Source of the DNA: Styela clava
Taxonomy: Eukaryota
Direction of reading: 5' to 3'
NCBI RefSeq assembly: GCF_964204865.1
Contig: NC_135260.1
Coordinates: forward strand, 6,820,001 to 6,884,000
DNA: 64,000 bases
Shown: one piece after another, positions 24,321 through 58,757 of the stretch
Numbering within the stretch: position 1 is the stretch's first letter
How the letters are laid out: each line of letters opens with the position of its first letter
Translations under genes and position numbers: made by a program
Notes under the pieces: model-generated
The model's input: only the letters and a program-made list of their open reading frames with translations
The model's database searches: none
Told to the model about the DNA's origin: nothing

Positions 24321-27300
24321 ATGAAATTCTTTGTCACATTTATATGTCTATTAGTCTTGGCCAAAGTCAATGCGGAGGTATACTTCAAAGACTATTTCAC
24401 AGACGGTGAGTGTTTTCATAAAATTTAAGTTTACTGGTTTAGAAAAAGGTGACCGAAGTAAACGTCTGAACGTATTTCCCACAACAACCTTAAACCACAG
24501 TGTCGGGTGTGTTTTCAAGTAGCATTTGTCACAAAAGAATAAATTTCATTTCAAAACCAAACACGAGAAAAGATACCGAAAATACCACCTTATTTCTTGG
24601 GAAACAATTTAAAACGTAATAAAACTAAAAACTAAAAGCTTTATGCTGTTATATAGTTTCCTTGAAAAACTGATTAGAACGATAAACTCTTTATTCCTAA
24701 ATATATTTGAAGTGAGTGAACTCGCGACCTTTGATCACTTTTGGGTCCGCAAGTACTCCTCAAAAATTTTTGCGGCCCTTCATCCTCGCATACTTGGACC
24801 ACTCTGTCCTGTATCATTATAATTCGAAAATTTAAACGAACACAGTTCTATAACGTCAGACATAAAAATGCCTTTTAGAGAATATTAATGTGTTTTTCTC
24901 AACATTGTAACCCTGAAAAGATCGAAGTTACACTCCTATAATCTTGAAATGTTGCCGTAGAAAACCCGAAGAGACGGACAACTCACCAGAACTCTCTGTA
25001 GTCGAGTTGTCTCTGTTGAGTTGTCTGTGTAGTCGAGTTGTCCGCCTCTTATATAAAGTACCGTATAATAAATCTTCATACCATAATAAAAAACTCACTG
25101 ATGGGAACCTCAAGACTCCCAATGCAACAGCCTAAGTATTTTTCTTATTATTTATAGCGGATTGGGAAGCTCGGTGGAAAGAATCTAAACACAAATCTGA
25201 TTATGGAAAATGGATTTTAACAGCAGGAAAATTTTATAATGATGAAGAACAGGATAAAGGACTCAAAACTAGTGAAGATGCCAAGTACGTTAATGATAAT
25301 CTTTTCATGAAGATTTTTTTCAGAAATCTGCAAATTGAGGAAAATTTAAGTCCAAAAATAATCGAGTTCTAATTTTCTGACCTTGCGTAGTTTTGTACCT
25401 CAAGTACTTCTAGCGGGCGTAGCGTGAGGATTTTGACCCTATGTCTGTATGTCAATCCTAACCCTCACTTGACTAGGCCATCCAAAAATTACGTCACTAC
25501 GACGTCACAAAATTATTTGGCTACGCCCACTAGAAGCAATTGAGTTATGAAACTATACTAGACCCTAATTTTCGATTGACAATTTAATAGGCCACAGTAG
25601 TATTCAGCATGTTGAACCAAATTTATTAGTGTTGTGGTTTAAAGATTGTGTAGTTGCAAATTGTGAATAGTATACCCACCCAGGAAGATTTTGCTCGTAT
25701 TCGATCTTATATGCTCTCTGTCTGTTATTTATTTTGAGTCTCGTTTGTATTGTAGTGACGTATCAAATTTTTTTATTTTAGATTCTATGCAATTTCTTCT
25801 AAATTTGACAAATTTTCCAATGAGGATAAAGATCTCGTCATTCAATTCTCTGTCAAGCATGAACAAAATATTGATTGCGGAGGAGGATATATCAAACTTT
25901 TCCCATCTGCATTACAGTCTGAAGATATGCATGGAGATTCACAATATAACATTATGTTTGGTAAGATATGACTTGACCATTGAATGCAGGGTGATGTGAA
26001 TATTGTCAACTTACTGTTGTTCTTGTTGAATGAAGCCTAGCCCGGCCCAGATATTTTGAGAGCTAACTATTGTTAAATACTTGATATGGCAGTACAAAAT
26101 ATATCAATTGTTAGTTATTGCTTTGAATAAAGTTAGTGATAAGCTAGGTTAAAAAAAATTCTTGTTTTTGATCTTTCCTTTCTAAAATTAAATCATCATT
26201 AATAAGTATGTTTTAACGAACTTCATTGTACAATACAACAAAATATTATTGGACATTTCTTGCTGGTAATATTCATCAGTATCATTCACATACCCGGTTT
26301 GGTGATGAACATCTTAAGTGTTTGTCGTGTTACGTAATCCATATTTTTGCTAAGTGGCAATGATGTAGCAACTGAAACGTGTGTCTACGTTTTGTTCTTA
26401 CCAAAATAATCTTTCATTTCAGGTCCTGATATTTGTGGGCCAGGTACTAAGAAAGTGCATGTCATCTTTCATTACAAGGGAAAGAATTTACTAATTAAGA
26501 AAGATATCAGATGTAAGGATGATGAAACTACACACGTTTACACCTTAATTGTGAAACCAGACAATACGTATGAAGTTTTAATTGACAATGCAAAAGCACA
26601 ATCCGGAAGCCTTGAAACAGAATGGGATTTCTTGGAAGCAAAAGAAATTAAAGATCCTGATCAATCTAAACCCTCACAGGAAGAATGGGACGAACGTGAG
26701 AAGATCCCTGACCCAGATGCAACAAAACCAGAGGTTTGTTGGCGCTCCGGAAGTATGTGCACCAAAATGGCGCACAACCTGAATCAGAACCTGGCACACA
26801 TACTATGTTCAGGTTGTGCGTCATCTTGGTGCACATTGGGAGCACTGGTTTGTCACCTGTTACCTTTCTCAACCTTCATTAAAAAAAAATTAATAAATTA
26901 TTAGTATCTCAAGTCATATTTGAGCTATCCTTTTATTTTCCTTGCGGGGCCTGATGCAATATCTTTTAAAACTTCTGTTAAAAGATGCATTTTAATAATT
27001 GCAAAAATATTGCATTGCTAAAATCTGAAATTGACCTGCTTTCAACCATTGAAGACTATCGAACATTTTAATCAGTGGTCTAAATTCTCATTTTTAAGTA
27101 ACAATGTTTGTATTTTTATTTACTATAAATGTCTTACATAGCATAATTCAAAAGAGATGTATATTTATTACTCTTTTCTGCTGTTTAGTATTAACTTGCA
27201 TTTTTATCTGAAGGATTGGGACAAGCCCGAACACATTGTTGATCCTGATGCCACAAAACCTGACGATTGGGATGAAGATATGGACGGCGAATGGGAAGCT

Positions 27301-29300
27301 CCAATGATCGATAACCCCGATTATAAGGGTGAATGGGAAGCCCCAATGATCGATAACCCAGACTACAAAGGAAAGTGGGTCCACCCTATGATTGCCAACC
27401 CCGCTTACGTTGCAGATGATAAGTTATACTTGTATGAAGATATCGGTGCTATTGGTCTTGATTTATGGCAGGTTTGTTTAATTAATATCAGACTTGGATT
27501 AATTTTGTAAATCAAGTAAAGTCGGCTTGACCGGGACACCGGTAGCATTCCTGTGTGGCCTTCACCTACTTCATATATGCGAATTGTCCGAACTATCGCA
27601 GGGCACTTAGTGCCACTTATACACTTAATAAGGATTTAATTAAAGTTCGTACAATGCAATCTGAAATGCGAAAGCGCATATGGTTATTAAGATCGGGCAT
27701 TTTGAACTAATTTGCCAAAATGACGCTTTTTTTATTATTTCCTGTTAATAAACTGTTTTAGTTGACTCATCATGAATGTCTTTTTGCAAGATAAAAGTGC
27801 GTGTGTTGTATGTGATTTATTCTTGTGGAGTATTTTTTGACAGTAAAAATTTATGGGTGCTTGTGATTTGTAAATACATCCTAACTTCTGCAAACAGTTT
27901 TACTACTGCCTAGTTTTAACCAGTGCCAATTTAAGTAAGATATCTGATTGCTGCATTTTTCTATGTTGTATTGCTTTCTTCATTTGGTTATGTGAGATAT
28001 GCTCGATAAGTAGATGTTTTATTTATTTTCACTTTTAGGTCAAATCCGGAACTATTTTCGATAATTTCCTTATCACTGATGACATTCAAACTGCAAAAGA
28101 TGAATGCGATAAAATCATGAAGGAGACTGTTGTTGGTGAAAAGAAAATGAAAGAAGCCAAGGAGGAGGAAGATAGAAAAACGGCAGAAGCCGAGAGTGAG
28201 GATGATGATGAGGATGAGGAGGATGTAGCTGATGACGAGAGTGTGAGTAAAAACATTTTTTTTTGTGATAGTGAAGTATAGCTTCAGATTTGTCTGAAGG
28301 CTGACTGTCTTGGCTGCCTAACTGCCAGGTTAAATTGGATATCTAATTCATTTTATCAATGTTCAAATATTCTTATCATTGAATATGTGGTCATGTGCTA
28401 TATCAGGGTTGGGCAAAGATTTTGGATCAGGGGCCAAAAATTCTGTCCACTTGGACTGGTGGGCCATGTAAACGTGATCTAAAAAAACATTTTATGAACA
28501 GTATTTATATACAGTGTTACAAAAGCAAAAGTGGAAAACAATGAGCCTTGTGCCGAAACTAAATTTCCTCGCAATCTAAAAAAAATTCTTGGTCTAATTT
28601 TTAGCTAAAACATCAAAATAGGGTTTTAGTTTAGTTAATCATAATGGTTTAATGTCCCGTGTTTAAAAAATAGTAAAGCCAAAAAATTGTTACATATGGG
28701 ATACTTACCGGTAATGATTTGATATAGATTAAGGAATGGCTTGGGAAATGATTGATACATTTATTTTAGAATTAAGAAGTAAATGAATTTTTGCAGCGAG
28801 ATTATGATTTATTCCATTTTAAGTATAATTTTTTGTGTATTGTTGATTGGTGGTGCAACAGTATATGAATTACTGAAGAAAAATCGTATTGTATAACAAA
28901 AGTGTATTAGAATATTCAACTCCTGGTGTTGGGGACACTCATACTTAACTGCCCTAACTTTATTGTATCTCTATTATATTATATTAGTTCAGTTATGGGA
29001 AAAGGATTTTTTAAAAACTCTAAATTTATGTCTAATGTTTAAGATGGTCAGTTGTGCATAGTATTGTATTTCTTAAATAAAAGTTTTCTTTGTAGTGTTT
29101 ATCAAATTATAAGGCAGTATCATATTTGGTAGAAATAACCTAAATTAAAAGTCTGTACAATGTTGTCTAACTTTGACTCACTTTCACAGGACGAAGGTTT
29201 GGATGAACCAGAAGATTTAGACGAACCGGAAGATGAATTAGATCAAACGGAAGATGAAGAAGAACAAGATGAAGCGAAACAAGAAAAAGATGAATTGTAA
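24321..29300 (+). CDS. CALR: Calreticulin
   Basis: Exons 24321-24405, 25158-25284, 25782-25960, 26423-26733, 27214-27471, 28039-28242, 29190-29300. Signal peptide, [24 protein letters not shown]-domain repeats, acidic tail, C-terminal KDEL-stop. Confidence 0.97.
26741..26846. mobile_element. Short palindromic MITE at the calreticulin exon-4 donor
   Basis: Family TIRs; TSD GGTTTGTT/GGTTTGTC overlaps the splice donor. Confidence 0.82.
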
Positions 29301-38258: not shown

Positions 38259-40257
38259 CTAATTTGGCTTAATTTTCATTTGGACAAATTTGAGGGAATA
38301 ATCATCCCCATCCCAAAATTGCCAAGATACCCCATTGCCTCCAGGCCCTGCCGAACTTTTGTAATATTTTCCATTCAGATTTGCTTTATAGCAGTCGTTA
38401 TACCACCATGCTCCGTGAAATAATACAGCGCAGTTACTACTGCTGCTATCTCTATCATGGGTACTAAATGGTTCAGCATTGTGATAACTCATCCCATCCG
38501 TTGCATTTCCGGAGTATCCCGATACAGTGAGGCGATAATTTGAATCTTCGTCTCCAATTCGGAAGGTACTGAACAAATATAAAATAATCATTTGTACAAA
38601 AATTGTTTTATGTTTACCAATTACGCCATCAATATTATATCGTCACCCTAATACCAAAATTGCGTAAGTCATTTTTATCGGTTCCAAGAAAAACATAAAA
38701 AAAACTTCTTGAAGATATTGTTATGCCATTAAGAGTAAATAATTTCCTATAGCTCAATTTTTTAGCCGTAGCCGGATTTAAATTATTTTGTATGACGTCA
38801 GCCCGTGACGTCATAGGACAGACGCAAATATTCCAACTTGACTATATCCATCTATCATGAAAACCAAACATTCGGAAAATATATGTCATGTACAATATCC
38901 ACGATCTCTAATTCCAAAACAGTTTATTTGTTTTAATAAAATAATTTATAATTCCTGAAATACATACTTTATCAATTTGACGCGCTTTGCACACCCACCG
39001 ATAATAAGACTAATATTATACTTAAATACCTATCTATTAAAGTATACACTGTAAATCGAGTGTCACGACACCGGAAGTAAGCGAATATTTAATATGTTTT
39101 CCGTGCATGTTCAATCGTGAAATACCAGTCCAGATAAGCAAGTTTTATTTTCCTTATGTTATTCATAATAAAAAAATGAGACCTGTAACCAGCATTTCTT
39201 TTTTCGCCTTCCCAGTTTAAGAGATCAATTCGTAAACTATAGCTTTTTCTTGAAGTCATTTTGTGGAGCTTATCTAGACCTGAAAAAAATTATGAAATTC
39301 AAAAATAGAACAAAAAATGAAGTAAAAGTAAAATAATACAAAGTAAAAGAAATAATAAATAAAGTTAAAGCATACAAATATTTCTTTCATACAATAACTT
39401 GTTTTATGCCATTTTTATTATGATCTTTTAAGCTTGAACCGTTTACAAAATAAGCTTTTTACCCAGCCATAACTCTCCATCAGGATTTCCGAAGCCATTC
39501 TTGTAATCCTCCCATCCTCTGTAAAAATCTACGCTTCCATCCATTCTACGTTGAATAACCTTTGAGAAAAATATGGAAATGTTTAATTTTTTGTTAAGAA
39601 GTGTCGTATCATAGAGCATTAGTTAAAATAGCTTATTATAATTTGTAACAACTATTTTTGTATATCAGATCTAATCGATGGCCATATGCCCAGCTATTTT
39701 TGTTGTTTTCCGCAATAGCTAGGTAAGAGATTCATTGGCTTCTTTCATCATAAGTGGCGCGCCCTAAGTATGAGGTATTAATAATTTATGTTTACTTGAA
39801 AAAACATCAAAATTTTAGTGAACTCGTATGCCCTCTGCGAGATTGCTTTACCTACGGGAGAACAAGGAATGAATGCACATAAACTAAAGTAATATTAGTA
39901 TTCGAGTGAGAAGCTAAGCACAAGGGTAATGCGGCGCCGTGCTACTGACAATCTTGAAGAATTATGGAATGGACTGATTTTTACCACGCTGTCAATAGGA
40001 TTAAGTCGATGTCAAAACGTTACACAAACGTGCGTCCAACGAGTTTTCTAGTTTGAAGGAGCATGTTCAAACAATTAGCAAATAATTTAATATTCTTACT
40101 GTCCATGCGTTCGATTCATCGAAAATGCAATTAACATTTGCAATCTCTCCATCTAACGTAATATAAATTGTTTCATTTCCTGTAGAAACCCTTCGTCCAA
40201 GTCGAGATAAATTTTCTTTGTATTCCGAACAATCTGCAGCTTTGTATAGTAAGTTTT
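38259..40257 (-). CDS. Ficolin-like fibrinogen-domain paralog A (open fibrinogen-domain exons; signal and collagen exons not found)
   Basis: Exons 40257-40100, 39559-39463, 39279-39183, 38568-38259 in frame: AADC...[40 protein letters not shown]...FSTHDRD...[15 protein letters not shown]. Confidence 0.8.
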
Positions 40258-41175
40258 CTGTATATTTTTGGTAATATTAAAAAAGCACTATATTAAAAAA
40301 TCAATTTTATTGTATTAATTGCATTATTGCCAAACATATACATATTTGCTACGTTGGAATGAAATTTTAGTATAAATAACTGAAGCCATTAAGTGATTTG
40401 AACAATTTTATCAACTCTAAGCAAAAAAAAAAAAAGATTTTTTGCTCTGGAAATGCAAATAAAATTTTTATGTGCTGTGTGGTGGTGCTTACAATAATCC
40501 AATCGTGGAATTTGTCATGTCAATAACGTTATAGGATCACTGACGTAGTCAATATATTGGCTCATTCGAATTATGGTTTGGTGAAGTTAGCGACTACCAT
40601 GCACTTAACTATCAACTTAAATAGCATGGCCGATGTACATATTAATCGTAAATAAAAATATAAAAAATGTTTTGAGTCCGATTGGCGCCAGCACACCTGG
40701 TTTCAACTTTTTCACGTAAAATGACTCAAGGATTTGATAGATCATATTATAAAGCATGTTATGAAGAAGGAAGATTTTTATTTCATTTGAAATGTCACGC
40801 AATGTAAATAAGTATAGGCGTTGAAAATAGCCAATATTTCAAAATATTTGTTGTATTATTGATAGGGCTCGGAGAAATTCAGCATGAGAGAGCAATTCCG
40901 GCAAGATACGCCTGCGTAAGTGAGTTCTTTCACCTACGACTGATATGTCGGAATGAACGAAAACTGATGACACCACTTGGTTCGCCCCTTTCCCGATCAA
41001 TTAAAAACTGAATACGAGACACTAAATAGGAGAGAACTCTCTCGTTTTCACCTTGGCACGGAACGGTAAAATTAAAAAAAATGATCGTTACATGGAGAGT
41101 GTTAAGTAGAAACATGTAGGAAGATCACATACTGAAGCGGCACCCTGTATTGTATATATTGAATGGTAAAATAAT

Positions 41176-42613
41176 TATGGTGGCCCATCGTTGTAAAAAA
41201 AAAATAAGAAAAATTAAAAAAAAGAATTGAATAAAAAGAAAATAAAAAGGTTGACAACGATGGTCCGCCTCGTGGCCCATCGTTGTCACGCGTTTTTATT
41301 TTTAGAAAATTTGCTTCTGCTTGGGACCAATGTTGTCAGGCATAATCCTACGCGCACAAATGTGTTCCCTGGGTTTCCAACTCACTACTGATTTTATCGA
41401 GCAATATTCAATATGAAAATGTTCTATAAATTCTCCATGTTACAAGTTCAACAAGAAGTAATATATTTATAATAATGATAAGAGAATATAGAATTGAATA
41501 CGAAAATTCGGAAAATTTGTTTTTACGTGTAGAAGGTAATTTAATTGGAGAATGTTGCTTAACTACTCAGCTGTCTGGACACTCGCGATGCCGGTACCGT
41601 ACCGTCTTACCAAATACTGGTAGTCGGTTATAGTCGCTTTGCCTCTGACCGTACCGGTAGCCATGCAATCACTCATGAAAGAATGGGAGATACGGATAGT
41701 CTCGTAGAATATAGACTACTGAAACACTCTCTGCGCCTGCCCCATACCGTACAGTCGTAACGTACCGATCTAGACAAATGATAAATCGCCCGTGCTCAAC
41801 CATTTATTTCAATCCATACCTCGACTCACTATATTCTACTAGGATCGAGGTATGGATTTAAATAAATGGTTGAGCACGGGCGATTTATCATTTGTCTGGA
41901 TCGGTACGTTGCGGCTGTACGGTATGGGGCAGGCGCAGAGAGTGTTTCAGTAGTCTATATTCTACGAGACTATCCGTATCTCCCATTCTTTCATGAGTGA
42001 TTGCATGGGTACCGGTACGGTCAGACGGTACTGTACCGGCATCGCACGAGTGTCCAGACAACTGAGCAGTTGAGCAGCATTTTCCAATTAAATTACCTTC
42101 TACAAGTAAAAACAAATTTTCGTATTCAATTCTATATTCTCTTATCATTATTATAAATATATTGCTTGTGGTTGAACTTGTGGCATGGAGAATTTATAGA
42201 ACATTTTCATGTTGAATTTATTGAATATTGCTCATGAAAATCAGTAGTGAGTTAGAAACCCAGGAAACACATTTGTGCGTGTAGGATTAAGCCTGACAAC
42301 GTTGGTCCCAAGCAGCATCAAATTTTCTAAAAATAAAAACGCGTGACAACGATGAGCCACGAGGCGGACCATCGTTGTCAACCTTTTTATTTTCTTTTTA
42401 TCCAATTTTTTTTTTTTTTTCAAATTTTTTTTTTTCGTTTTTTTTTTTTTCGTTTTTATTTTTAATTTTTTTTTTTAATTTTAAATTTTTTTTTTCATTT
42501 CTTTTTTATCAATTATTTTTATGTTTTTTCAAAACTAGTTTTTTATTTTCGCTTTTTCATTTTATTTTTTCATTTTTTTTTAATTTTACGCGTGGCAACG
42601 ATGGGCCACCATA
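41176..42613. mobile_element. Foldback-type non-autonomous DNA transposon (IS3EU-like termini)
   Basis: Inverted arms 41176-41824 and 41845-42613 around a 20-nt spacer; termini TATGG...CCATA; 6-bp TSD AATAAT (41170-41175, 42614-42619). Confidence 0.8.
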
Positions 42614-43049
42614 AATAATGCTGTCCGCTTGATATTTATTTATTTTTTTTTTTAACTTTTTCATATAGGCTAGATGTCAGTTTGACTGATTGTATTGTGT
42701 CGAATGTAGATTCTGGCAAAATTGCAAATGACCAACTTCAGATACTGTCAGACTGCTCAGCACATCCGAGTAAAATTATTGGATAAAACATACGTTGAAC
42801 TAGAGCTGAATGGATGTTTGACCTTTGACCCAACACTATTATGTTTATATTTTGTCATTAATTTTGAGAGTGTTTTTGGGACTTTAAAAACTGTTCAGTA
42901 CATCCGAATAAAATTATTGGATAAAAATTATTTCTATACTCTATTATTAATTTTGAGAGAGTTTTTTGAGAGTGAAAGTAGCACGTCAAAACGACAGCCC
43001 CAAAAAACATAAAGCGAGGCAACTGTCAGGCTATGGACGCCATCTGGAG

Positions 43050-43285
43050 TAGGGTCACCATATTTGAAAAAGCATAATTCCGGACAGTGCATGGCTATTT
43101 TCATGACCTCGTAGTAAAAATATGCGCACGGTACGAAATAACAATGTTCTGTATTAGCAGTGTGCACAGTACGATTGCAGATGCAGTAAAATTCCGGATT
43201 CCGGACATTTGAGCATTTTTTAAATTTTTCCCGGACGCTAAATTTAACCCGGACGGAAATATTCCCGGACGGTATGGCAACCCTA
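43050..43285. mobile_element. hAT MITE (TAGGG termini)
   Basis: TIR tagggtcaccata/tatggcaacccta, TSD ATCTGGAG; empty site ATCTTGAG at 45101-45108 in the duplicate. Confidence 0.9.
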
Positions 43286-43456
43286 ATCTGGAGCCAATTA
43301 TTTTACTCTGTTCTATATTAAGGCGCCTTGCAGGGATAAAGAAAATCATTTTTCAAGAATAATCTTAGGCGAACACGTTGATATCTTATCTTATAATCAA
43401 GCAAATACATTTAGTGATTTTGCGATTCGTCTTCCCATCTCACTTCAAACAAAGCG

Positions 43457-44101
43457 CTAGACAAGACAATTACTAATACATAAGGATCTACTTTGCTCGA
43501 AATCATCGCAATTTTTCCTGTTCTGGACTTCAGGTGCTGGGGAATTTCTAATTGGGATATTTGACTCGTCCTAAAAAGCGTTTAAGGGAGAAATATTGTC
43601 CGAGTGAAAAACGAGAAAGAGAAGGCCGTACCAACCTGTACTGTGTTCAACTTTTGTAGTTTGTGGGAGCACAGTGGAAAGAAAGGCTTCCTTAGTTGAC
43701 CACGGGGATGTAGCAGGAACGGTTGAAGCTTGGGCCGAAGAAGTTTCCTTGTCTTTGTATCCTGTGTGAAAAAGCTAGTTTATATTTCAAGTTTAAAGCA
43801 AGATTGATAGTTTTGGGTACTTTAATGGAAGAATGAGACAGTGGATGAAAGTGCAAATTTTTCCTTTTTTCATCGTTTTCGCATAATCGCCGTATTAATA
43901 ATTACTATGACTGAGGAAGACTTTTTGGATATCTATTCTAATGCATGCGATGGCGAAAGACTTAGATTTTCTTACCCTGGAGAGTGGTCGTTTCTTTGAC
44001 ACCATCAACAGAGGGCGGCACTGAGTTCGTGTTTAAATCTTCCGAAGTTTTTCGTAATTGATAGAGCATATTTTTCGTCTCGTCTACTTGTTCTGTTAAA
44101 G
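43457..44101 (-). other. Duplicated 3' exons of the Ser/Thr-rich gene (alternative exons or partial pseudogene)
   Basis: Open exons 44101-43976, 43761-43636, 43536-43457 with retained splice sites; upstream exons not duplicated. Confidence 0.55.
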
Positions 44102-44621
44102 CTGCGAAAAATAAATATAAAAATATATTAAATTGAGCCTTCGGTTTCACAATCCATTATCAGTGAATTTTTTGTTGGAAGATATGTACCCCTCTCTTTC
44201 CTTGGTCGTTGTACAATTTTTCTGGCTTTTTTATGTTTTGATATGGCTTTTTTTGGATTGCTGGGATCTGGCAATCCTGGTACGGTACCCGGACGAGAGG
44301 CCGTGGTTAAGCCGGCTTTCCTCTCCCCGAGGATAAATATGTAAAACCTATCCTATTTTGGTTGTGGCAGCATTAGGCGGGCAAGATTAAATTACCCAAC
44401 AGGTCTGATTTGGCCCGCAAGCCGTAGGTCGCCCATTGCCTGATTGTGCAGATGTCAGATTAAGATCCTGGACGGGGAAAACTACAACCCGTCACAGCCT
44501 TTCGTGTGGTCAATCAGGTCTTGAAGAAAGTTGTGAAAACTACTTACAGAAATTAGATTTATTCTTAAACTTAAATTAAAAGCCCGGAAAATTGCAAATG
44601 ACCAACTTCAGATACTGTCAG

Positions 44622-45030
44622 ACTGCTCAGTACATCCGAGTAAAATTATTGATTGAAAAATACGTTGCATTAGAGCAGAATGGACGTTTGACCTTTGACC
44701 CCCAACCATTATGTTTATACTTTGTCATTAATTTTGAGAGTGTTTTTGTGACTTTAAATGCTGTTCAGTACATCCGAGTAAAATTATTGGATGAAAAATA
44801 CGTTGAATCAGAGCATAATGCACGTTTGACCTTTGACCCCAAACATTATTACTATACTTTGTCATTAATTTTGAGTGTTTTTTTGACTTTAGATACCGGT
44901 ACTGTTCAGTACACCTGAGTAAAATTATTAGATAAAAAATACGTTGAACTGGTGCAGAATAGACGTTTGACCTTTGACCCCAAAACTATTTCTATACTTT
45001 TTTTTATTAATTTTGAGAGAGTTTTTGAGA
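44622..45030. repeat. ~140-bp minisatellite, 3 units (about 1.5 units at 42752-42970)
   Basis: Unit ctg(c/t)tcagtacatccgagtaaaattatt...tgacctttgaccc...ttaattttgaga. Confidence 0.85.
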
Positions 45031-45269
45031 GTGAGAGTAGCACGTCAAAACGACAGCCCCAAAGGGCATAAAGCGAGGCAACTGTCAGACTATGGACGCC
45101 ATCTTGAGTCAATTTTACTCTGTCCTATATTGGGGCGCCTTGCAGGGATAAAGAAAATCATTTTTCCAAGAATAATCTTAGGCGAACACGTTGATATCTT
45201 ATCTTATAATCAAGCAAATACATTTAGTGATTTTGCGATTCGTCTTCCCATCTCACTTCAAACAAAGCG

Positions 45270-46584
45270 CTAGACAAGACAATTACTAATACATAAGGAT
45301 CTACTTTGCTCGAAACCATCGCAATTTTTCCTGTTCTGGACTTCAGGTGCTGGGGAATTCCTAATTAAGATATTTGACTCGTCCTAAAAAGCGTTTAGGG
45401 GAGAAATATTGTCCGAGTGAAAAACGAGAAAGAGAAGGCCATACCAACCTGTACTGTGCTCGACTTTTGTAGTTTGTGGGAGCACAGTAGAAAGAAAGGC
45501 TTCCTTAGTTGACCACGGGGATGTGGCAGGGACGGTTGAAGCTTGGGCCGAAGAAGTTTCCTTGTCTTTGTATCCTGTGTGAAAAAGCTAGTTTATATTA
45601 CAAGTTTAAAGCAAGATTTATAGTTTTAGTTACTTTAAGGAGAGAATGAGACAGTGAATGGCAATGCATAATTTTTCTTTTTCATCGTTTTCGCATAATC
45701 GCCGTATTAATAATTACTATGACTGAGGAGGGCTTTTTGGATATCTAATCTAATACATGCGATGGCCAAAGAATTAGATTTTCTTACCCAGGGGAGTGGT
45801 CGTTTCTTTGACACCAACAACAGAGGGCGGCACAGAGTTCGTATTGGAATCTTCCAACGTTTTTCGTAATTGATTGAACATATTTGTGGTCTCGTCTACT
45901 TGTTCTGTTAAAGCTGCAAAAAATAAATATAAAAAGATATTAAATTGAGCCCTCAGTTTCACAATCCATTATCAGTGAGTTTTTTTGTTGGAAGATGTAC
46001 CCCTCTCTCTCTGATTAAAAATAAGGATATGAGATTGGTATTGCTAAACTACACGTCATAATTTAATTGTTAAAAATGGCGCGATAAAAATATAAAATGA
46101 TTGAAATTTTTCTAATAAAACGATTGTTTGGGGGCAATTTTGCTATCAGACTGTTTGACAAATATGGAAAAACTGGCAAACGTATTTCGATGAAAACCAT
46201 ATTGTGACACGAACCGTCCAAAGCTTCCTTTTCTTCCTTTGTGCACTGTCGTATCTGAAATAGAACAAGGGAGAAATGTTTAAATATATGGACATGGAGG
46301 CTTTAGCTGCTGGGTAAGTGTTCCCGTGAAAAAGTGTTCCCATGAATTAAATGGAAAACTTAAAATCTGGGATGAGGTAACGATTAAAGTAAGTTTCAAA
46401 CCTCCGGTACTCATAGATCGATGAAAAAAATTGCTAAAAAATTCAAGTTCCTCATTTTATTTTCAGATTTCAAACAGAACAGTTCAATTCCTGCAAATAT
46501 TACCTCCAATATAAAAATTACTACTAACGCTATCACCTTATTAACATCTTTCCAAGTGGGTTTCCCATCGCAAACCATGGCCAT
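45270..46584 (-). CDS. Uncharacterised ~148-aa Ser/Thr-rich protein (putative)
   Basis: Candidate exons 46584-46537, 46254-46198, 46010-46001 (10-nt microexon), 45913-45788, 45574-45449, 45349-45270 join in frame (447 nt): MAMVCDGKPTW...KETTTPLGYKDKETSSAQASTVPATSPWST...CISNCLV*. The start codon and terminal acceptor are uncertain. Confidence 0.5.
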
Positions 46585-47824
46585 CCTGCAATCCTCTCCT
46601 GCAAGAGAATATTGAAATTAAAAATAGAGCAGAATGACCGTTTTAGACTAAGTTTATAACAGATAAACGAAAGTTGTATTACTGAATTTTCCCATATCGA
46701 GACTAAATCAGTACCTATTACCTTAGGGCGCGCATTCGCTCATTCTCTATTTAATTTCATACTGCTACCCACGTCATGCGAACGCACTATTTTCCTCGAT
46801 GATGATTGGTCGAATCAAATTTGAATTATAACGCCCGCCATTGGGGAACCTTACAATGTTTAGCGGTCTTGGGGGCATGGGCGAAGTTCTGACCGATTAC
46901 CGCGATTCAATTTCTGGTTTCTGAATTCGTTTCAATTTTTTTGCAAGCAATAAACTCAGGAAGGTTGAATTCCACAAAGTTTGATGCTTCCTTTATACGC
47001 TTTCCTACCCAAACAAGGCTCAATCTCTCATATCGTCATGTACACTGATCGGTTCAGAAGTGAAAAAAGCGAGCGATCACTTATACGTAATTAACTGCTG
47101 TATTTTGAATAGGCAGTCATCTTGTTGATTCGGCATTGCTTACTCAATTTACATCACTCCGGGTGAAGTCGTGGGTATGAAGTTAAAATGAGATTTTCAC
47201 TCCGCAATGCCAAAATATCCGAGTCAAACGCTCCACCAATGGGCCACCACGCCCGCTAATCGCGATTTTTCACTTCTGAATATTTGAGTGTATATGACAA
47301 TATTTAAAATTTAAGTTTAAAAAACAAAACGTTTCAAATGATGAAATCCTCTCATCTTTTACAATTTAAAAGCGACTCAAAAATAAGTAACAGTTCAAAG
47401 TTGAATGATGAGGCCCCCAAGATTCGAGGCCCCTAGGCTTCAGCCTATTTTGCCCGGTAAACCCAACCTTGTTGACGGTACAGCAAAGCATCCAATACGT
47501 GACACAATAAACGAGGTATTCGAGAAAAAATCTATCATATAAAAAATCATTATTTGATATTCAAATGTCGATTTAACCTTCATCGAGAAACCGAGGTTCG
47601 ACATATTATTACATCGTCATAGTGGCCTCCCCTACGCCGGAATAAATAAATATTTCTTTTGATACAAATATGACAGCTGTGACGCGAGAAAACAGATTTG
47701 AAATATGTCAAAAGAACTGTTTCAATTCACGGTCACGTTACATTTCTGGTTTATATACTAGGAAGAGTACGAAGCGTTGAAGCTGTATAAATATCAATGG
47801 CCTGATTTTGGGGATTCTTTATAT

Positions 47825-48143: not shown

Positions 48144-51100
48144 CTTTATATAATATCTAAAGAACTAACCCTATGTACAAATCACCAAATTTCATAGTTT
48201 AAAATCGCCGGGGAGATTCTTAAATATTTATTTTATTTTTTTTGCTTTAGTGAAACCAGCAATTGATAATAGCCTATTAAAAAACAGCGCTAACATTATG
48301 AAATTTTGGCACAAAATTTTTATTTATGCACAAATATGCACTGTGCAGCTTCATTTAGAGCAGCACAATTATCCTGCCTGATTTATTGATGCAAAACTAC
48401 TACGTAAAGTAAGGATTACCTCGCCAGCGGCGTAGCAAATATCTAAAGAAAATTAATTATAGTATAGTGCGCCCCCAAAAAGCAAAACCCAGGCAAACAA
48501 GCAAACCCAACAAAGCGTACACGGTTATACTGACCTTTAATCAATAAACAAGCCTCCATTAACAGTATTAGTCTGATGAAACTGTGTTGAATCGGAAACT
48601 TCATTTCGAATCCAAGAATTTCGTCAACTTTTCTTCAATGAAAGTCGATTCCCGAACAACGTAGGTTAGAATGAAGCATCGGACTATTCGCATCGGAATA
48701 TATCCTATTCAAACTCACTCAGTACACGGAAAAGAGTAGCCAATGTTATTTAAACTTCCTGTGTAATTCCAGCTATCGTTGAACTAAATTTCCGTTGTAT
48801 TGTTCATGAGTAACACCATGATTTCAAAGTGTCGCTTTCCCGAAATACATTAGTGATTTTATGAGATCATTATCGTTTAAAAAAATCGCGGAAGTTCACG
48901 TCAATCATTCACTTTCTTTCCGAACAGCGCAACGCGAATTTAACACTAAATATATCAGTAAGATATTCTGTTTATAATTTCAATTAAAGCCCTCGTTATA
49001 TTTTCAAATATTGGCATATCCCACGTAGAAATGCATTGTAATATCGCGATTCTTGAACATGAAATACGTTAGATTTTTCTCCTTCGAAAATATGCAAGGT
49101 TCACGCTATATCACGTGATTTGTAACTCAAAGAGTCGGAATCGCAGACTTTCAATGACAATAAAATGAATGAAAACTTCCTACTTAATCTCAAAAAACAA
49201 TAATTTTTCCTCCTCGGAATTGCCTCCCCAATTTATCCCACTCTGGATTAGAAAAACAACACTCCAACCACTCGGCCATCGCGCTACCCCCATTCAAATA
49301 AATATTTACCATAAGTCGAAAAATTGCCGCATAATTTTGGTGCTATGAATTTAAATTATATTGGCTTCGTGACGAATCAAGCAAGCGCTGTCATACAACA
49401 TTTATGTGAGAAATCTTCTTTGTGTGCGAATTATCGTGTCAATTTTATCCCAATTCAAACTTTCTACCACTTAAAAAGATTATAAGCGACCTTTCATAGC
49501 AGTGGTAAATAAAAGGGGGGATTGAAAGTCAAAATACTATAAAAACCTATCATAATTAGAATTAAATTTTGCCGAAGTTACAACCCATCACTTGCCGGGG
49601 TGTTTGAAATTTTAAGGGGGCGTTCACCCTATAAGAGAGTAGTGCGGGAAAATCACTGCGCTCAATCAGACATTGAACAGCTATAGTTGCCAATAAATAA
49701 AGGCAGCCGTCACATAAAATGAATACAATGAAGTAAGTTGTTATTTCTTTTTCCAAGAAATGAGCTTTACTGGATGCATTGTGGGTAAACCTAGCAATCT
49801 AAGTAAATTTCTGAAGAGTTAAGAACCGCAGCTATAAACTGATATAGTTGGATTCGGGTTAGATTCCCTCCTTGTATTCCCACACAAGATAGATTTCCCA
49901 CAAAAATATTGTTCGCGTGTGTTGGATACATGTTTCATCCGGCCCACTTGCGAATGCTTAAAATACAGGTATAGTTTTTATTGATATGATTTTTCCGTTG
50001 AAAATATCGATGAAAATTGCGTCATAATAATCCCGATTGTTACATTATGCTTATTATATAAACGTTAGCCTAGCTGTTGTAAATGAACTGTTTTTTATGC
50101 ATAGTTTTTTCTATCGAGTTTTCAGCCTCTGGTCCAGTAACTAAGTCCATAACTCGTAATTAGCCCACTCGGAAAAGTAATTGCCGACCCCTGGTCAACC
50201 AATCAATTTTGAAATCGGAGTACCGAATGACGTTGCAATATTTCTGACATACCAAGAATATCCAAAATTAAAAAAAAAGTTCGTGTAAGAATGAGCGGAA
50301 ATGTTGCATGATCACTCATATTTCTAGCTTCCGTGTGTGTGATCATTGCCTGATTCATCATTGAGTAATTACCATGAATGCTATTAAACTTTATTCCAAC
50401 TTTTAGAATCCACGCTCTCAACGCATGATAGCTGTTAACAAAAAAAGGAAATTTACCACACAACTTACGGTTAGAGTTGTCTTTGACACAGCTATTTTGG
50501 GGGTCAAGTGGTCAAAGGGGGATTCAAGTGGTTGTTACCTTTTAATATTTATCACGTGGGAGTAGAATGCCAATGAGACAGTTTAGTCATATAGTGAACC
50601 CTCAGTGGCCTCAATACCCGTTCATGTTGGATTCAGAAATAGTTGAGCAGTTATTTATTTCAGATACACAGACTAGATGGTGAGGAAGCCGTAATCGAAC
50701 AGCGGTTACGTGATAGTGAGGGGTCCAGCAATCCTCTCGCACATGATCATCCCTTATTGGAACCACCAAACACCTCGGAGTTTGGAAAGTGCGATTACAA
50801 AGATACTCAAACTTAGCACGAAGCACCAACCACCGAACACCCTGAAGCTTGGAGAATTATCAACGACTAAACAGCGCTACGTGAACTTTCGAACTCTTCA
50901 TAACGGAGAAAGTGTCATAGTTTCCTTCCCATATTCAGTAAAATATATGTTTGAATTCGTCAGCTTTTTTTTCAAAGTTATGTTTACAAAATAACAGCAG
51001 ATTGATTGATTAATGAATTCCACCAAATTCGAGATACAGAAGAGTAATTATTAAGTTTTCTGACATATAGGCAGCATTTTTTGTAATACTGTTTAGACAG

Positions 51101-53677: not shown

Positions 53678-56600
53678 CTAATTTGGCGTAATCTTCATTT
53701 CAACATATTTGAGAGAATAAGAAAACCCATTCCAAAATGACCAAGATATCCCATTGTTTCCAGGTCCTGACAAACTTTTGTAATATTTTCCATTCAGATT
53801 TGCACGGTAACAACCTTTATACCACCATGCTCCGTGATAATCTACAGCGCAGTTACCACTCATGGTACTAGTGCCGCGTTGATCATTATCTCTATCATGG
53901 GTAGTAAATAGTTTAGCATTGTGATAATTCATCCCATCCTTTGCATTTCCGGAGTATCCCGATACAGTGAGACGATAATTTGAATCTTCGTCTCCAATTC
54001 GGAAGGTACTGAACATATTAAAAATATAAAATAATAAATTTTGCAAAAAATATTTATGTTTGCCAATCAGGTCATCAATATAAATAATATCGTCACGCTA
54101 ATAACAAAATTGAGTAAGTCATTTTTATCGGTTTTGAAGAAAATATGAAAAAAAATTCCTTAATTATGCCATTAAGAGTAAATAATTTCCCATAGTTCAT
54201 TTTAGCCACAGTCGGATCTAAATTCATTTGTATGACGCCAGCCCGTAACGTCATAGGACATACGCATTTTTGCAACTTGAATACATTCATCAGTTCTGAC
54301 AACCAATCATTCGGAAAACTTACGTAATTTAAAATATCTATACGATCTTCAATACCAAAACAGTTTCTTTGTTTTGATAGCATAGTTTTTATTTTCCGAA
54401 ATATATACTTTATCAATAAAACGCGCTTTGCACATCCACCGAAAATAAAACTTATACTATATTTGAATACCTATCTATTGGAGCATACACCAAAAATCAA
54501 GAGTTACGATATCGGAAGTGAGTGAATAATAAATATGCTTTGCGCACATGTTCAGAAGTGAAAAATAATATTCTTAAGATAAAATAACACGAGACCTGTA
54601 AGCTGCATATCTTCTTTCGCCCTCCCAGTTTAAAAGATCAATTCGTAAACTATAGCTTTTTCCTGAAGTCATTTTGTGGAGCTTATCTAGACCTGATAAA
54701 AAAATACCAAATTTAAAAAATACAATAAAAAACAATGGTTAAAATTTAAGCATACAAATATTTTTTTCTTACAATAACTTGTTTTATGCCAATTTTATTA
54801 TGATATTTCGGGCATAAAATGTTTACAAAATAAGATTTTCACCCAGCCATAACTCTCCATCAGGATTTCCGAAGCCATTTTTGTAATCCTCCCATCCTCT
54901 GTAAAAATCGACACTTCCATCCATTCTACGTTGAATAACCTTCGAGAAAATATGGAAAGAGTTTATTTTTTAATAAAAACACAAAAATTGTCATATCATA
55001 AAACATTAGTTAAAATAACTGATTATAATGGATTTAAAAAATGAATTTTGTAACAGCTATTTTTTGTATATCAGATTTAATTAATGGCATATATACATCT
55101 CAGCCATATTTTTTTGTTTTCCGCAATAGCTGAGTAAGAGATTCTGGGCTACTTCAATCATCAATGACGCGCATTATCTATAATTCAATTCAAAGAAAAA
55201 AAATTTGAACTTTTCAATTAAAGAAATTTCACTTGTAAATTAAATCTGATCTCAAGATTCGCGTTAATTTAAGGATGAGAGGTCTAGCTAGCACAAGCTT
55301 TTTATCGTTTGTTATTATTCATAATCTTGAATGGCTATCGAACAATTTATTTTTTAGGATATTATGAAATTTGATTTAGTCAATATCAAGTAGTTACACA
55401 AACGTAAGTCCACTTTTCAAACCGAGGTTACAGTTTTTCTAAAGTTAGTTTGAAGGAGCATGTTCAAACAATTAACAAGTAATTTGATATTCTTACTGTC
55501 CATGCGTTCGATTCATCAAAAATGCAATTAACACTTGCAATCTCTCCATATAACATAATATCAAATGTTGCTTTTTCAGCGGTAACTCTTCTTGCAAGTC
55601 GATATTCCGAGCAATCCGCAGGCAGTAATCGTTTTAAGTTTTCTGTACATATTTTAGTATCAACATTTATTGCCAGCTCATTCATTTCGAGACGCTTGCT
55701 ACCAGCGACGAAGCTTCATGTTACACGCAATGGAAACTATTGAGGAATTGATTTATATTGTTTTAATGGCATAATTATCAAAATCATACGTATTTATTAT
55801 GTATTATTGTTTACTTTCGGGAACGGAAGTATTGGTCTAAATAACTGTAGTCATAAAATGATTTGAACAATTTAGTAATTCTGAGCAAAAAAAAAACGCT
55901 CATTCGCTCTTCAAGATGAAACATAAGATCGAGAGTAAACCAGAAAAACTTCAAATGTTAACTTGTTTCCGAAAGTTTGGAAAGCTCAGTTTGGAAAGCT
56001 TGTTAAATCATTAACACCTAGAGTTCACAATAAAATCGTATGCTTGTCGAAGTTGTACACAATACCTACGTTGCAATTGGCTATTATTTCCTTTTAATTC
56101 ATCAAATTGCAGTTGAAGTTGACTATTATTTTCTTTCAATTCGTCGAATTGCAGTTGGTATTGGCGATCATTTTCGTTCAATTTATCAAATTGCATATGT
56201 AATTTTGACAGTTCAGATCTCAAATGCGTCACTTCCTCTTCATCGACGATATTGCATTGACAGGGATCTCCCTTTTGACCTCGTTGACCTTTTTGACCTG
56301 CCAATAAGAGGGCGGTAATAAGCAATAAGAGCAGACAGTTTTGAGAGGTCGTAAAAGTAATTAAAATGAAAATGTTCGTCAAGTTTTGATCTTGCCCGCC
56401 TTATTTTAGATATTTTCATTTTTTATTTTGGATATTTACGTTCCATCCACGTAAACATAATGGATGAAACATACTTTCTCCTTACTGTTATTTGAAGCTT
56501 ATTGTTAGCTAGTTACTCTTAAGCTGGGATGCCAGACTTGACAAATTCGAAAAAGGGGCGCGGTTTAAAAAGTTTATGCACCACTGTAGTAGAGTATTGG

Positions 56601-58757
56601 GCAGCTATCGTAAAGTTTTAAGAAGTTCAAAGTTTTTAATCCATGATATCTCAGAACACCCATACACCCATTGTCTTCTCATATATGTCAAAAATTTGGC
56701 ATTTTCATAAAATGATATGAAAATGACTCAGAGACCAAAGATAGCGGCACACTTTGTTAATTGCTAACATGTACTCGCTGGTCCTTTTTCTTCATACATA
56801 CATATGATGTGATGCATAAAAATGAAATTCGTAAGTAGAGAGTTATTTTAAATAAGGCATGTCCAACCTTTTTAGTGCCGCGGGTCACTTTCACACGAGG
56901 AAATTTATTTCGGGCCGCAAACCTAAATATATATATATATATAACAGTTTTTACGTTGGAATTTAAGCGTCGCTGAAGCAAACGCTTTGATTGCACAAAG
57001 CTATTGTGAATATATGAACACAATACGCACGCATTTTTACGCAGTGACTTTATTTCATAAGTTTTATTTAACGCAAAAAAGCCAGTAGCAAAGATATTGT
57101 ACGGTACACTTTTTTATTTTACGATGGCGATAAGGATGATCGAAGCCTACACGAAAGTTATTATCTAGGTTGCAAATTTATTCCTATAATTTTCCTCGAC
57201 CTATGATAGCACAATAGCTTTCGATTTTGTAGAACGAAACGCGCGGTCCTTCCAGTATTAAAAAAAAACATCGATGTCAACCAGATAATGTGATAACGCT
57301 AGTTAGAACGATGAGGTATAATTATTTTAATAATAAGTTACTTAATTTTTTTTATTGGAGGTGTCAAATTTGTGGGGGACGTCGGCTTAAGTTTGGTTTA
57401 TTCAATTTCGAAAACTACTGAGCGGGCCACTCGGAACTTTTCTGCCGGCCACTTGTGGCCCACGGGCTACGGATTGGGCGACCCTGTTTTAGACAGTAAA
57501 TTGCACATAACAATCGCATGACAAAAATAATCAAAAAAAATTATATCTAGTTCTCGCAAATTTTTTTCTTCGTCATGCGTATACCGTCTCGCCGAATATA
57601 TCGTTTGAGTGATATAATGCTGCCACGAGTGTTTTTTCGGTACAATATTTTTACCTACTACGGCGTGTATGAAGCTTGGATACGGAAAATTTTGACTTAG
57701 GGCTAGATATTGAAATTCTGTTATCTTTACTTTTCCGATTATATACTGTGCCGTGGGCCAAATGCCGCATTCAAGGAAAATTTGTTCGGCCCGCGGAGAA
57801 GTGCAAGTTTTGAATGCCAGTGCCGCGATACGAGTTTCTAAATTAATTCGGTACGTGTGAGTAATTCCAATCCCTTCGCGCTGGAGAGCCTATACCCAAG
57901 TCCAATTTAATATCTATGCCTGCGACTCCACAATGCTTTAACATCCAGCTTGTTCAAACAACGCATGCCACAAGATCAATAACCAAAACTTTTGTGCCTG
58001 TACTACTAGGAGCATATGTTATATAAAGGTGCGGCCCGCGGTTTCACCCAATTATTTGTATCTTGCCCACCTGTATTAAATGTTAAACACCCCTGATTTA
58101 CTGCATAACGGGCAAGTTTTTAAAAATTACATGATGAAGGTTCCCTATCGCTAACGTTTATGGTAATCTTTTTTTTCCAGAAATTACGGGTCTTTGGCAT
58201 TGTGGAACGATTTTTGTCGAACTTTGTCTCCGGCAGTAGAAATAAGATTGCGTATATTCTAATGGAAGTCATATACAAAATTAAGATGTATGTAAAAAAA
58301 TACCGCAATTCGTTTTTTGTTCCCTTCGAGCGAGCGGAAATTGATTTGAAAAAAATCGCAAAGTGGAAAAATGTATTATGTTCATTTCAAAAGGTATTGT
58401 ACATGTATTTTCAAAATTGGAATTTTCCAATGTTTTGCCAAATTATTTATGTCAGTTCATTCACACCGGGAAATGGAAAACACACGTTTTCTTTGATAAA
58501 AAATTATTCCTATATAATTTAGATTCCATTTTCTTACCAACAGGGCCAATTTTTTCCGGTCTTCCTTGTTGTACTCTTGTACTAGCGATCCCTTGGGAAG
58601 AAGCCATTCCTGCCATATTTTCAGGTTTACATAAACTTGTAGTGGTAGTCGTTGTACAGCTGAATGGTGGAGATAAATTCACACCTTTGACGTCTTGCGA
58701 CAATACCAATGATGCAACCATGCTGATTATAAACGTGTAAAGAACCAGCATATTCAT
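53678..58757 (-). CDS. Ficolin-like protein, paralog B (signal peptide, short collagen, coiled coil, fibrinogen C-terminal domain)
   Basis: Exons 58757-58538, 56297-56070 (or -56066), 55642 (or 55698)-55497, 54939-54843, 54692-54596, 54008-53678 in frame; [18 protein letters not shown]; [11 protein letters not shown] repeats; fibrinogen-domain motifs through [15 protein letters not shown]. Confidence 0.9.
56853..57486. mobile_element. hAT-type non-autonomous element in ficolin intron 1 (also at ~62953-63571)
   Basis: Ends aaggcatgtccaacc / attgggcgaccctg, GCGGGCC motifs, TTTTA-containing target; absent from the inverted copy near 52655. Confidence 0.65.

What the first reader, a model, noticed from the sequence alone, without database searches (positions are those of the whole stretch)
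38259..46584. Possible chimeric gene: Ser/Thr-rich exons spliced onto a headless but intact fibrinogen domain
Seen: paralog A keeps four open exons with intact splice sites, but I found no collagen or signal exons; homology to paralog B stops near 40460. Upstream on the same strand lie four 126-nt phase-1/1 exons (45913-45788, 45574-45449, 44101-43976, 43761-43636), and A's first exon starts in phase 1. Skipping the terminal exons gives a continuous ORF (...[14 protein letters not shown]...). Inference: a new gene in which a mucin-like stalk replaces the collagen stalk; the 1.4-kb foldback hairpin in between would shorten the effective intron.
Basis: inference. Interest (0 to 1): 0.7.

Follow-up and report, generated by a model that had tools for sequence, protein, structure and literature searches.

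The report
Lectin stalk fused to fibrinogen head
In a sea squirt, the front half of a secreted lectin-family gene sits in frame with the fibrinogen-like end of a ficolin-type gene, giving an open hybrid gene in two copies that likely encodes a new recognition protein and would lack the collagen site that ficolins use to start complement.

Summary
Eleven exons (48604 to 38259, minus strand, ten GT-AG introns) give an open 445-aa protein identical to an existing RefSeq prediction labelled Styela clava, 'uncharacterized'. Residues 1-225 (signal, Cys/helix segment, duplicated helix + Ser/Thr exon pair) come from a large family whose other members end in sushi or C-type-lectin-like heads. Residues 226-445 are a ficolin-type fibrinogen domain, joined through a phase-1 intron. 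A second copy lies 33 kb away. One RNA-type contig (1 of 4 runs laid on that copy) crosses the junction; it cannot be assigned to either copy. The foldback is irrelevant, since the second copy lacks it. The 'terminal exons' are most likely intron sequence. The head is not fully intact: this allele lacks one calcium-loop Asp, and the acetyl pocket is not conserved. Selection evidence is mixed (dN/dS 0.24, but dN is not below the intron rate). The same fibrinogen cassette sits on three different N-termini in this genome. Verdict: lineage-specific exon shuffling in immune lectins, a new variant of a known kind.

The parts
48535..48604 (-).
   Evidence: shared with donor models; signal function inferred from hydrophobicity
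46537..46598 (-). Exon 2: Cys-containing N-terminal segment (phase 1/0)
   Evidence: RNA-type contig joint 46254-46537 in X1, X2, X3
46215..46254 (-). Exon 3: third Cys and start of predicted helix (phase 0/1)
   Evidence: joint 45913-46215 in X1, X2, X3
45788..45913 (-). Exon 4 (S1): predicted helix plus Ser/Thr tail, 126 nt, phase 1/1
45449..45574 (-). Exon 5 (S2): Ser/Thr-rich linker, 126 nt, phase 1/1; 63 matches genome-wide
43976..44101 (-). Exon 6 (S1 duplicate)
43636..43761 (-). Exon 7 (S2 duplicate); donor side of the chimeric splice
   Evidence: equivalent joint in run X7
42716..43635 (-). Donor-family intron DNA, including a 141-bp satellite unit and a small inserted repeat
41170..42612 (.). 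Foldback element inserted in the junction intron; absent from copy D
40459..41106 (.). Left part of a TTAA-bordered piggyBac-like element with its right end missing; marks the fusion point
   Evidence: same left end as the 2.4-kb insert with DDE_Tnp_1_7 remnants in copy D
40258..40431 (-). Remnant of the fibrinogen-cassette intron (72-82% to B and C, 79% to the contig C10 paralogs)
40100..40257 (-). Exon 8 (F1): start of fibrinogen domain, phase-1 acceptor
39463..39559 (-). Exon 9 (F2)
   Evidence: joint 39557-40098
39183..39279 (-). Exon 10 (F3)
   Evidence: joint 39277-39461
38259..38568 (-). Exon 11 (F4): ligand/calcium subdomain and stop; shortened calcium loop in this allele
48605..50500 (-). 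Upstream DNA homologous to the upstream DNA of donor-family genes (likely the carried-over promoter region)
   Evidence: promoter role inferred
53678..58757 (-). Paralog B: intact ficolin-type gene (signal, short collagen, coiled coil, fibrinogen domain), equal to RefSeq model P0050
60085..62418 (-). Paralog C: broken ficolin-type copy (stop in the coiled-coil exon, last exon cut after about 14 nt)

Best explanation
This is an open 11-exon hybrid gene, present twice, whose 5' half belongs to a secreted sushi/C-type-lectin-like family and whose 3' half is a ficolin-type fibrinogen cassette; it likely arose by a DNA rearrangement inside two phase-1 introns and likely encodes a secreted recognition protein that would bind targets without recruiting MASP proteases. 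Shown: exon anatomy, two parent families, matching splice phase, transposon fragments at the joint, one spliced contig across the joint. Inferred: a donor copy landed upstream of a ficolin-type gene, and a deletion ending inside a piggyBac-like element removed the donor's head exons and the ficolin's signal, collagen and coiled-coil exons. Unequal crossing-over with a neighbouring ficolin then made copy D, with a swapped ligand subdomain. Predicted, untested: expression from the donor's promoter, oligomers through the Cys/helix segment, glycosylated spacers, and an opsonin, agglutinin or decoy role with a ligand other than N-acetyl groups.
For: The joined exons equal RefSeq model XP_077974233.1 letter for letter, and copy D equals XP_077974232.1; all introns are GT-AG with no internal stop. 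Residues 1-141 are 70% identical to head-bearing family member P0061 and the match ends at the junction; the match to ficolin B covers only the fibrinogen part. In 14 other genomic regions with the module, 12 show sushi or lectin-like exons downstream, 2 show none in the stretch fetched, and 0 show fibrinogen exons. In the two donors checked, S2 ends and the next head exon starts in phase 1, like F1. Run X7 has a contig joining S2 to F1 with GT-AG ends (depth 15.7, 41 nt on the short side) and one joining S2 to S1. A versus D over codons 1-225: 15 synonymous and 13 non-synonymous changes, dN/dS 0.24, Fisher p 0.0003; exon 7 has 6 synonymous and 0 non-synonymous changes. A versus B over the fibrinogen domain: dN/dS 0.46, p 0.004. 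D is mostly about 95% like A up to F1, then 92-98% like B/C in the next two introns against 79-84% like A. The fibrinogen domain folds with pLDDT about 90 over residues 231-380 and matches ficolin structures at target TM about 0.89. There is no collagen or PGKxGP motif; that motif is the MASP site (PMC3179595, passages).
Against: In X3, X6 and X7, F1 is also joined to a ficolin coiled-coil exon. Non-synonymous changes are not significantly below the intron rate (13 versus 17.8 expected, p 0.15), and the low dN/dS comes from an excess of synonymous changes (15 versus 5.3), which conversion from functional relatives could produce. The 5' joints in X1-X3 may come from an unfused relative: the X1 contig continues into a shorter S2 type found at other loci. 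This allele lacks the second calcium Asp that 7 of 7 other paralogs or alleles keep. The RNA evidence behind the RefSeq model was not visible to me.
Confidence: 0.72

Rival explanations
1. A neutral or decaying juxtaposition: a truncated lectin-family copy lies upstream of a headless ficolin, splices to it because the phases happen to match, and the product does nothing.
For: dN is not significantly below intron divergence. The calcium loop is shortened in A. The neighbouring copies C and C' are broken. The junction was seen in 1 of 4 runs.
Against: Both copies keep 11 open exons and every splice site while their introns took transposon insertions. There are six synonymous and no non-synonymous changes in the exon at the joint. 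D keeps the calcium motif.
Confidence: 0.17
2. A gets its 5' end from ficolin exons (B, C or its own), and the stalk exons are a separate gene.
For: Contigs in X3, X6 and X7 join an A/D-type F1 to a ficolin coiled-coil exon.
Against: That exon end differs from all four coiled-coil exons in this genome and matches at the protein level the second half of model P0060, which this genome does not encode. It is therefore a separate unfused gene or allele. No head exon of the donor family was found between the stalk and F1.
Confidence: 0.06
3. An assembly artefact: a mis-join at the repeats, or two haplotypes placed in tandem.
For: The junction is made of repeats. A and D are 93-97% alike over about 13 kb. 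I could not lay the DNA runs.
Against: The same junction occurs twice with about 95% intron identity and different insertions. A spliced contig crosses it in a public run. D's 3' part is B/C-like, so D is not a plain allele of A.
Confidence: 0.05

Closest known systems
Ficolins (human L-, M-, H-ficolin; ascidian ficolins; paralog B in this window)
   Same: C-terminal fibrinogen-like domain, E 4.5e-51 to ficolin-2; 73% identity to B over the domain; signal-like N-terminus.
   Different: No collagen and no PGKxGP motif. The N-terminus comes from an unrelated family. The acetyl pocket residues are not conserved.
Styela clava secreted stalk family with sushi and C-type-lectin-like heads (e.g. P0061, P0007, P0020)
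   Same: Same signal, Cys/helix and Ser/Thr exons, introns and upstream DNA; A and D nest in this family on the N-terminal tree.
   Different: The head is a fibrinogen domain, and the S1-S2 exon pair is duplicated. None of the 142 new proteins among the best 150 profile hits carries a fibrinogen domain.
Snail VIgLs: FREPs, CREPs, GREPs
   Same: One N-terminal module carrying alternative fibrinogen, C-type-lectin or galectin heads (PMC10075465, passages).
   Different: The shared module there is IgSF; here it is a Cys/helix/Ser-Thr stalk, and the fusion point is still readable in the DNA.
Collectin/ficolin pair (MBL versus ficolin)
   Same: Lectin head and fibrinogen head exchanged on a common stalk (established knowledge; shared MASP motif in PMC3179595, passages).
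   Different: The stalk here is not collagenous, so MASP recruitment is not expected.
RefSeq models XP_077974233.1 and XP_077974232.1
   Same: Identical protein sequences.
   Different: They are automatic predictions named 'uncharacterized'. A full-text search for the locus id found 0 papers.

Membership tests
Ficolin | C-terminal fibrinogen-like domain | tested here: met
   Pfam PF00147 E 3e-61; fold and Foldseek
Ficolin | N-terminal collagenous domain | tested here: not met
   0 runs of three or more Gly-X-Y; B, B' and P0060 have one
Ficolin | [quoted passage not shown] | tested here: not met
   absent in A and D; present in B' and P0060, altered in B; motif from PMC3179595 passages
Ficolin / FIBCD1 / TL5A | S1 acetyl pocket (FIBCD1 Tyr405, His415, Tyr431, Ala432, Trp443) | tested here: not met
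   A has Phe393, Tyr403, Gly419, Gly420, Asp431: 0 of 5 identical, by counting along the alignment with numbering from PMC3908420 passages
Ficolin / FIBCD1 / TL5A | Calcium site (FIBCD1 Asp393, Asp395) | tested here: not met
   First Asp kept (Asp383); second missing in a loop 2 residues shorter than FIBCD1; kept in D and six other relatives
Ficolin | Trimeric subunits and higher oligomers | not tested
Exon-shuffled chimeric gene | Two halves from two unrelated parent families | tested here: met
Exon-shuffled chimeric gene | Junction in an intron with matching phase and an open frame | tested here: met
Exon-shuffled chimeric gene | Transcript across the junction | tested here: met
   one contig in run X7, 1 of 4 runs, copy A or D not resolved
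Exon-shuffled chimeric gene | Purifying selection after the fusion | tested here: inconclusive
   dN/dS 0.24 but dN not below the intron rate
Mucin | Long Pro/Thr/Ser-dominated repeat region | tested here: not met
   two linkers of about 60 aa, Ser+Thr 30-37%, Pro 7-10%; mucin-like spacer at most
Mucin | Dense O-glycosylation | not testable with these tools
   needs glycoproteomics
FREP (strict sense) | IgSF domain before the fibrinogen domain | tested here: not met
   no Ig family hit in Pfam
Styela stalk lectin/sushi family | Shared N-terminal module | tested here: met
   70% over 142 aa
Styela stalk lectin/sushi family | Sushi or C-type-lectin-like head | tested here: not met
   head is PF00147

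The most novel reading that the evidence does not exclude
This ascidian runs an active plug-in system of immune receptors: phase-1 stalks and phase-1 heads recombine between families, one fibrinogen cassette already sits on three N-termini (collagen ficolin, membrane-anchored form, lectin stalk), and the lectin-stalk fusion still segregates against its unfused ficolin parent in living populations, so the birth of a new receptor architecture could be studied as a polymorphism.
Probability: 0.3. Interest if true: 0.65.

Novelty: new variant of a known kind. Interest (0 to 1): 0.45.

Why it matters
Swapping lectin and fibrinogen heads on a shared stalk is thought to explain collectins versus ficolins and snail CREPs versus FREPs (recalled; the domain layouts are), but those events are old. 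Here both parent families, the intronic fusion point, a later head swap and transcripts of an unfused ficolin form are all visible in one species. That makes the step testable: who carries the fusion, where it is expressed, and what a fibrinogen head does once it is cut loose from MASP. The protein itself is already predicted in RefSeq and exon shuffling is a known process, so the surprise is moderate.

Tried and rejected
Foldback as an intron shortener: rejected; D lacks it, and contigs in X1 and X2 join across the empty site. Terminal exons: an acceptor 60 nt after each S2 gives a stop after 7 codons in both A copies but not in either D copy; no joint to it is among the rows shown. Indel test for selection: the script's total included three misaligned introns (4, 5, 7), which I dropped; the other four give 8 indels in 2728 nt, about 2 expected in the exons against 0 seen, not significant. 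Single-sequence fold failed (pLDDT 32); the alignment fold was used instead, and its stalk stays below pLDDT 60. Complex prediction for a stalk trimer was not available, so there is no verdict. The fibrinogen-domain tree left the A-type heads unresolved, so the direction between ficolin and membrane forms is open. The Atlas search gave no usable hit for the stalk. No holder was on record as RNA; the runs are guessed RNA, and their GT-AG joints are my reason for treating them as such. Three look-ups of earlier findings returned nothing. Paper searches showed no description of this gene; I saw listings, plus passages of PMC5465252 and PMC3269628, which do not mention it. Subscription papers, including genome papers on this species, are outside the library, and no supplements were opened.
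Full report
Observation. They are one pair duplicated in tandem (918 nt, 93%). Three more exons lie upstream: 48604-48535, 46598-46537 and 46254-46215. The eleven exons give 1338 nt with ten GT-AG introns and no internal stop. The product is identical to database protein P0001, RefSeq XP_077974233.1, 'uncharacterized protein LOC120348181', labelled Styela clava. The gene is thus already predicted; its origin is not described in anything I could find.

Parent of the 5' half. The module is multicopy: 63 of 67 candidates match the Ser/Thr exon, on 10 contigs, and exons with introns match at about 70-85% elsewhere. Database models with this N-terminus continue into sushi domains, a MAM-like segment (my recalled label) and a lectin-like head. 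Among 8 such proteins scanned, one hits Sushi strongly and three hit Lectin_C below the curated cut-off (E 3e-4 to 0.04). The family profile also retrieves mannose-receptor-like proteins, so 'C-type-lectin-like' is the fair label. Of 14 other genomic regions, 12 show such head exons downstream of S2, 2 show none in the stretch fetched, and none shows fibrinogen exons. Homology to donors runs about 1.9 kb upstream of A's ATG and 4.5 kb upstream of D's, so the upstream region came along. Nine of ten profile hits looked up are named S. clava and one is unnamed. None of 142 new hits has a fibrinogen domain.

Parent of the 3' half. F1-F4 form a fibrinogen domain. This subfamily has 8 F1 exons in the genome: A, D, four ficolin-type copies (B, C, B', C'; C and C' broken) and two genes on contig C10 whose models have a hydrophobic segment that I read as a type II membrane anchor. 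The C10 genes share cassette DNA with A from 40355 at 77-81%. A's F1 differs from B and C and resembles the second half of model P0060, a ficolin with a coiled-coil exon that this genome does not encode. Contigs in X3, X6 and X7 join that kind of exon to an A/D-type F1. An unfused A-type ficolin therefore exists in other material, which suggests that gene content differs between haplotypes (inference).

Junction. Donor intron DNA runs to about 42716. It is followed by a fragment of a dispersed repeat, the foldback, and the left 650 bp of a TTAA-bordered element whose right end is missing (41106-40459). Four of eight other copies checked show that right end, and a relative carries piggyBac-type DDE_Tnp_1_7 remnants. 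Cassette intron DNA begins at about 40431. In the two donors checked, S2 ends and the next head starts in phase 1, as does F1. A deletion or recombination between two phase-1 introns, ending in the transposon, is the simplest route (inference).

Second copy. The whole arrangement recurs about 33 kb away (G000:C14:6891545-6902728) and equals XP_077974232.1. It has no foldback and a 1550-nt junction intron. It is mostly about 95% like A up to F1; the next two introns are 92-98% like B/C and 79-84% like A. That fits unequal crossing-over, which would give the stalk a second ligand subdomain.

Transcripts. On A, runs X1, X2 and X3 show joints between exons 2-3-4, and F1-F2 and F2-F3 joints occur in three and four of four runs. 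Only 15 of 32 joint rows were shown, and none was S2-F1. On D, where no cut was reported for the joint table, X7 has one contig joining S2 to F1 (GT-AG, depth 15.7, 41 nt short side) and one joining S2 back to S1; X1, X3 and X6 do not. The contig cannot be assigned to A or D. The X1 5' contig continues into a shorter S2 type seen at other loci, so the 5' joints may come from an unfused relative. Contigs show presence, not absence.

Selection. A versus D, codons 1-225: dN/dS 0.24, p 0.0003. This holds without exon 5 and without CpG sites. Against the rate in four cleanly aligned introns (93 of 2727), non-synonymous changes are not significantly scarce (13 versus 17.8, p 0.15) while synonymous ones are in excess (15 versus 5.3). 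The signal is suggestive only. A versus B over the fibrinogen domain gives 0.46 (p 0.004). The ligand subdomain is the variable part (0.68-0.81 for A against D, B and B').

How it likely works. The predicted protein has a signal, three Cys, a helix (residues 50-82), a disordered Ser/Thr linker, a second helix and linker, and a folded head (stalk confidence low). It lacks collagen and the MASP motif that B' carries. Mapped on FIBCD1, none of five acetyl-pocket residues is identical, and this allele lacks the second calcium Asp that seven relatives keep. I expect a secreted binder acting as opsonin, agglutinin or decoy under the donor's promoter, oligomerising through the Cys/helix part. None of this is tested.

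Comparison and verdict. It works like a head swap of the collectin/ficolin or CREP/FREP type. It is not a ficolin, a mucin or a strict FREP by the features tested. New variant of a known kind; interest 0.45.

Noticed in passing
window 34315-31591, minus strand: Collectin-like gene (signal, collagen with a PGKxGP motif, neck, C-type-lectin-like exon) directly downstream of A, so the stretch is a cluster of lectin-pathway-type receptors (identified by eye).
   Followed up: no
window about 26410-29300 and 2859-3194, plus strand: Calreticulin-like exons and a cytochrome-P450-like exon (labels recalled, not scanned).
   Followed up: no
window 60085 and G000:C14 about 6915590: Ficolin copies C and C' are cut at the same point about 14 nt into the last exon; C also has a stop in the coiled-coil exon.
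   Followed up: partly
G000:C14:6918945-6942208: A 23-kb stretch with near-perfect inverted arms (99.65-99.83%) right beside the ficolin cluster: a recent large element or an assembly feature.
   Followed up: no
G000:C10 about 22.12-22.14 Mb (L068, L069): Two genes put the same fibrinogen cassette behind a likely type II membrane anchor and a Tyr-containing N-terminal tail.
   Followed up: partly
L017:2980-5370: 2.4-kb piggyBac-like insertion with transposase remnants in intron 4 of copy D.
   Followed up: partly
G000:C5 about 6206500-6216000 (L052): Long array of the 141-bp satellite inside or after the intron that follows S2 in a donor-family gene.
   Followed up: no
window 38259-38568: Residues around the ligand and calcium loops differ in all eight paralogs or alleles aligned, while the first third of the exon is nearly invariant; possible diversifying selection.
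   Followed up: partly
G000:C14 about 6907775-6908112: Inverted fragment of a ficolin signal exon upstream of copy D.
   Followed up: no
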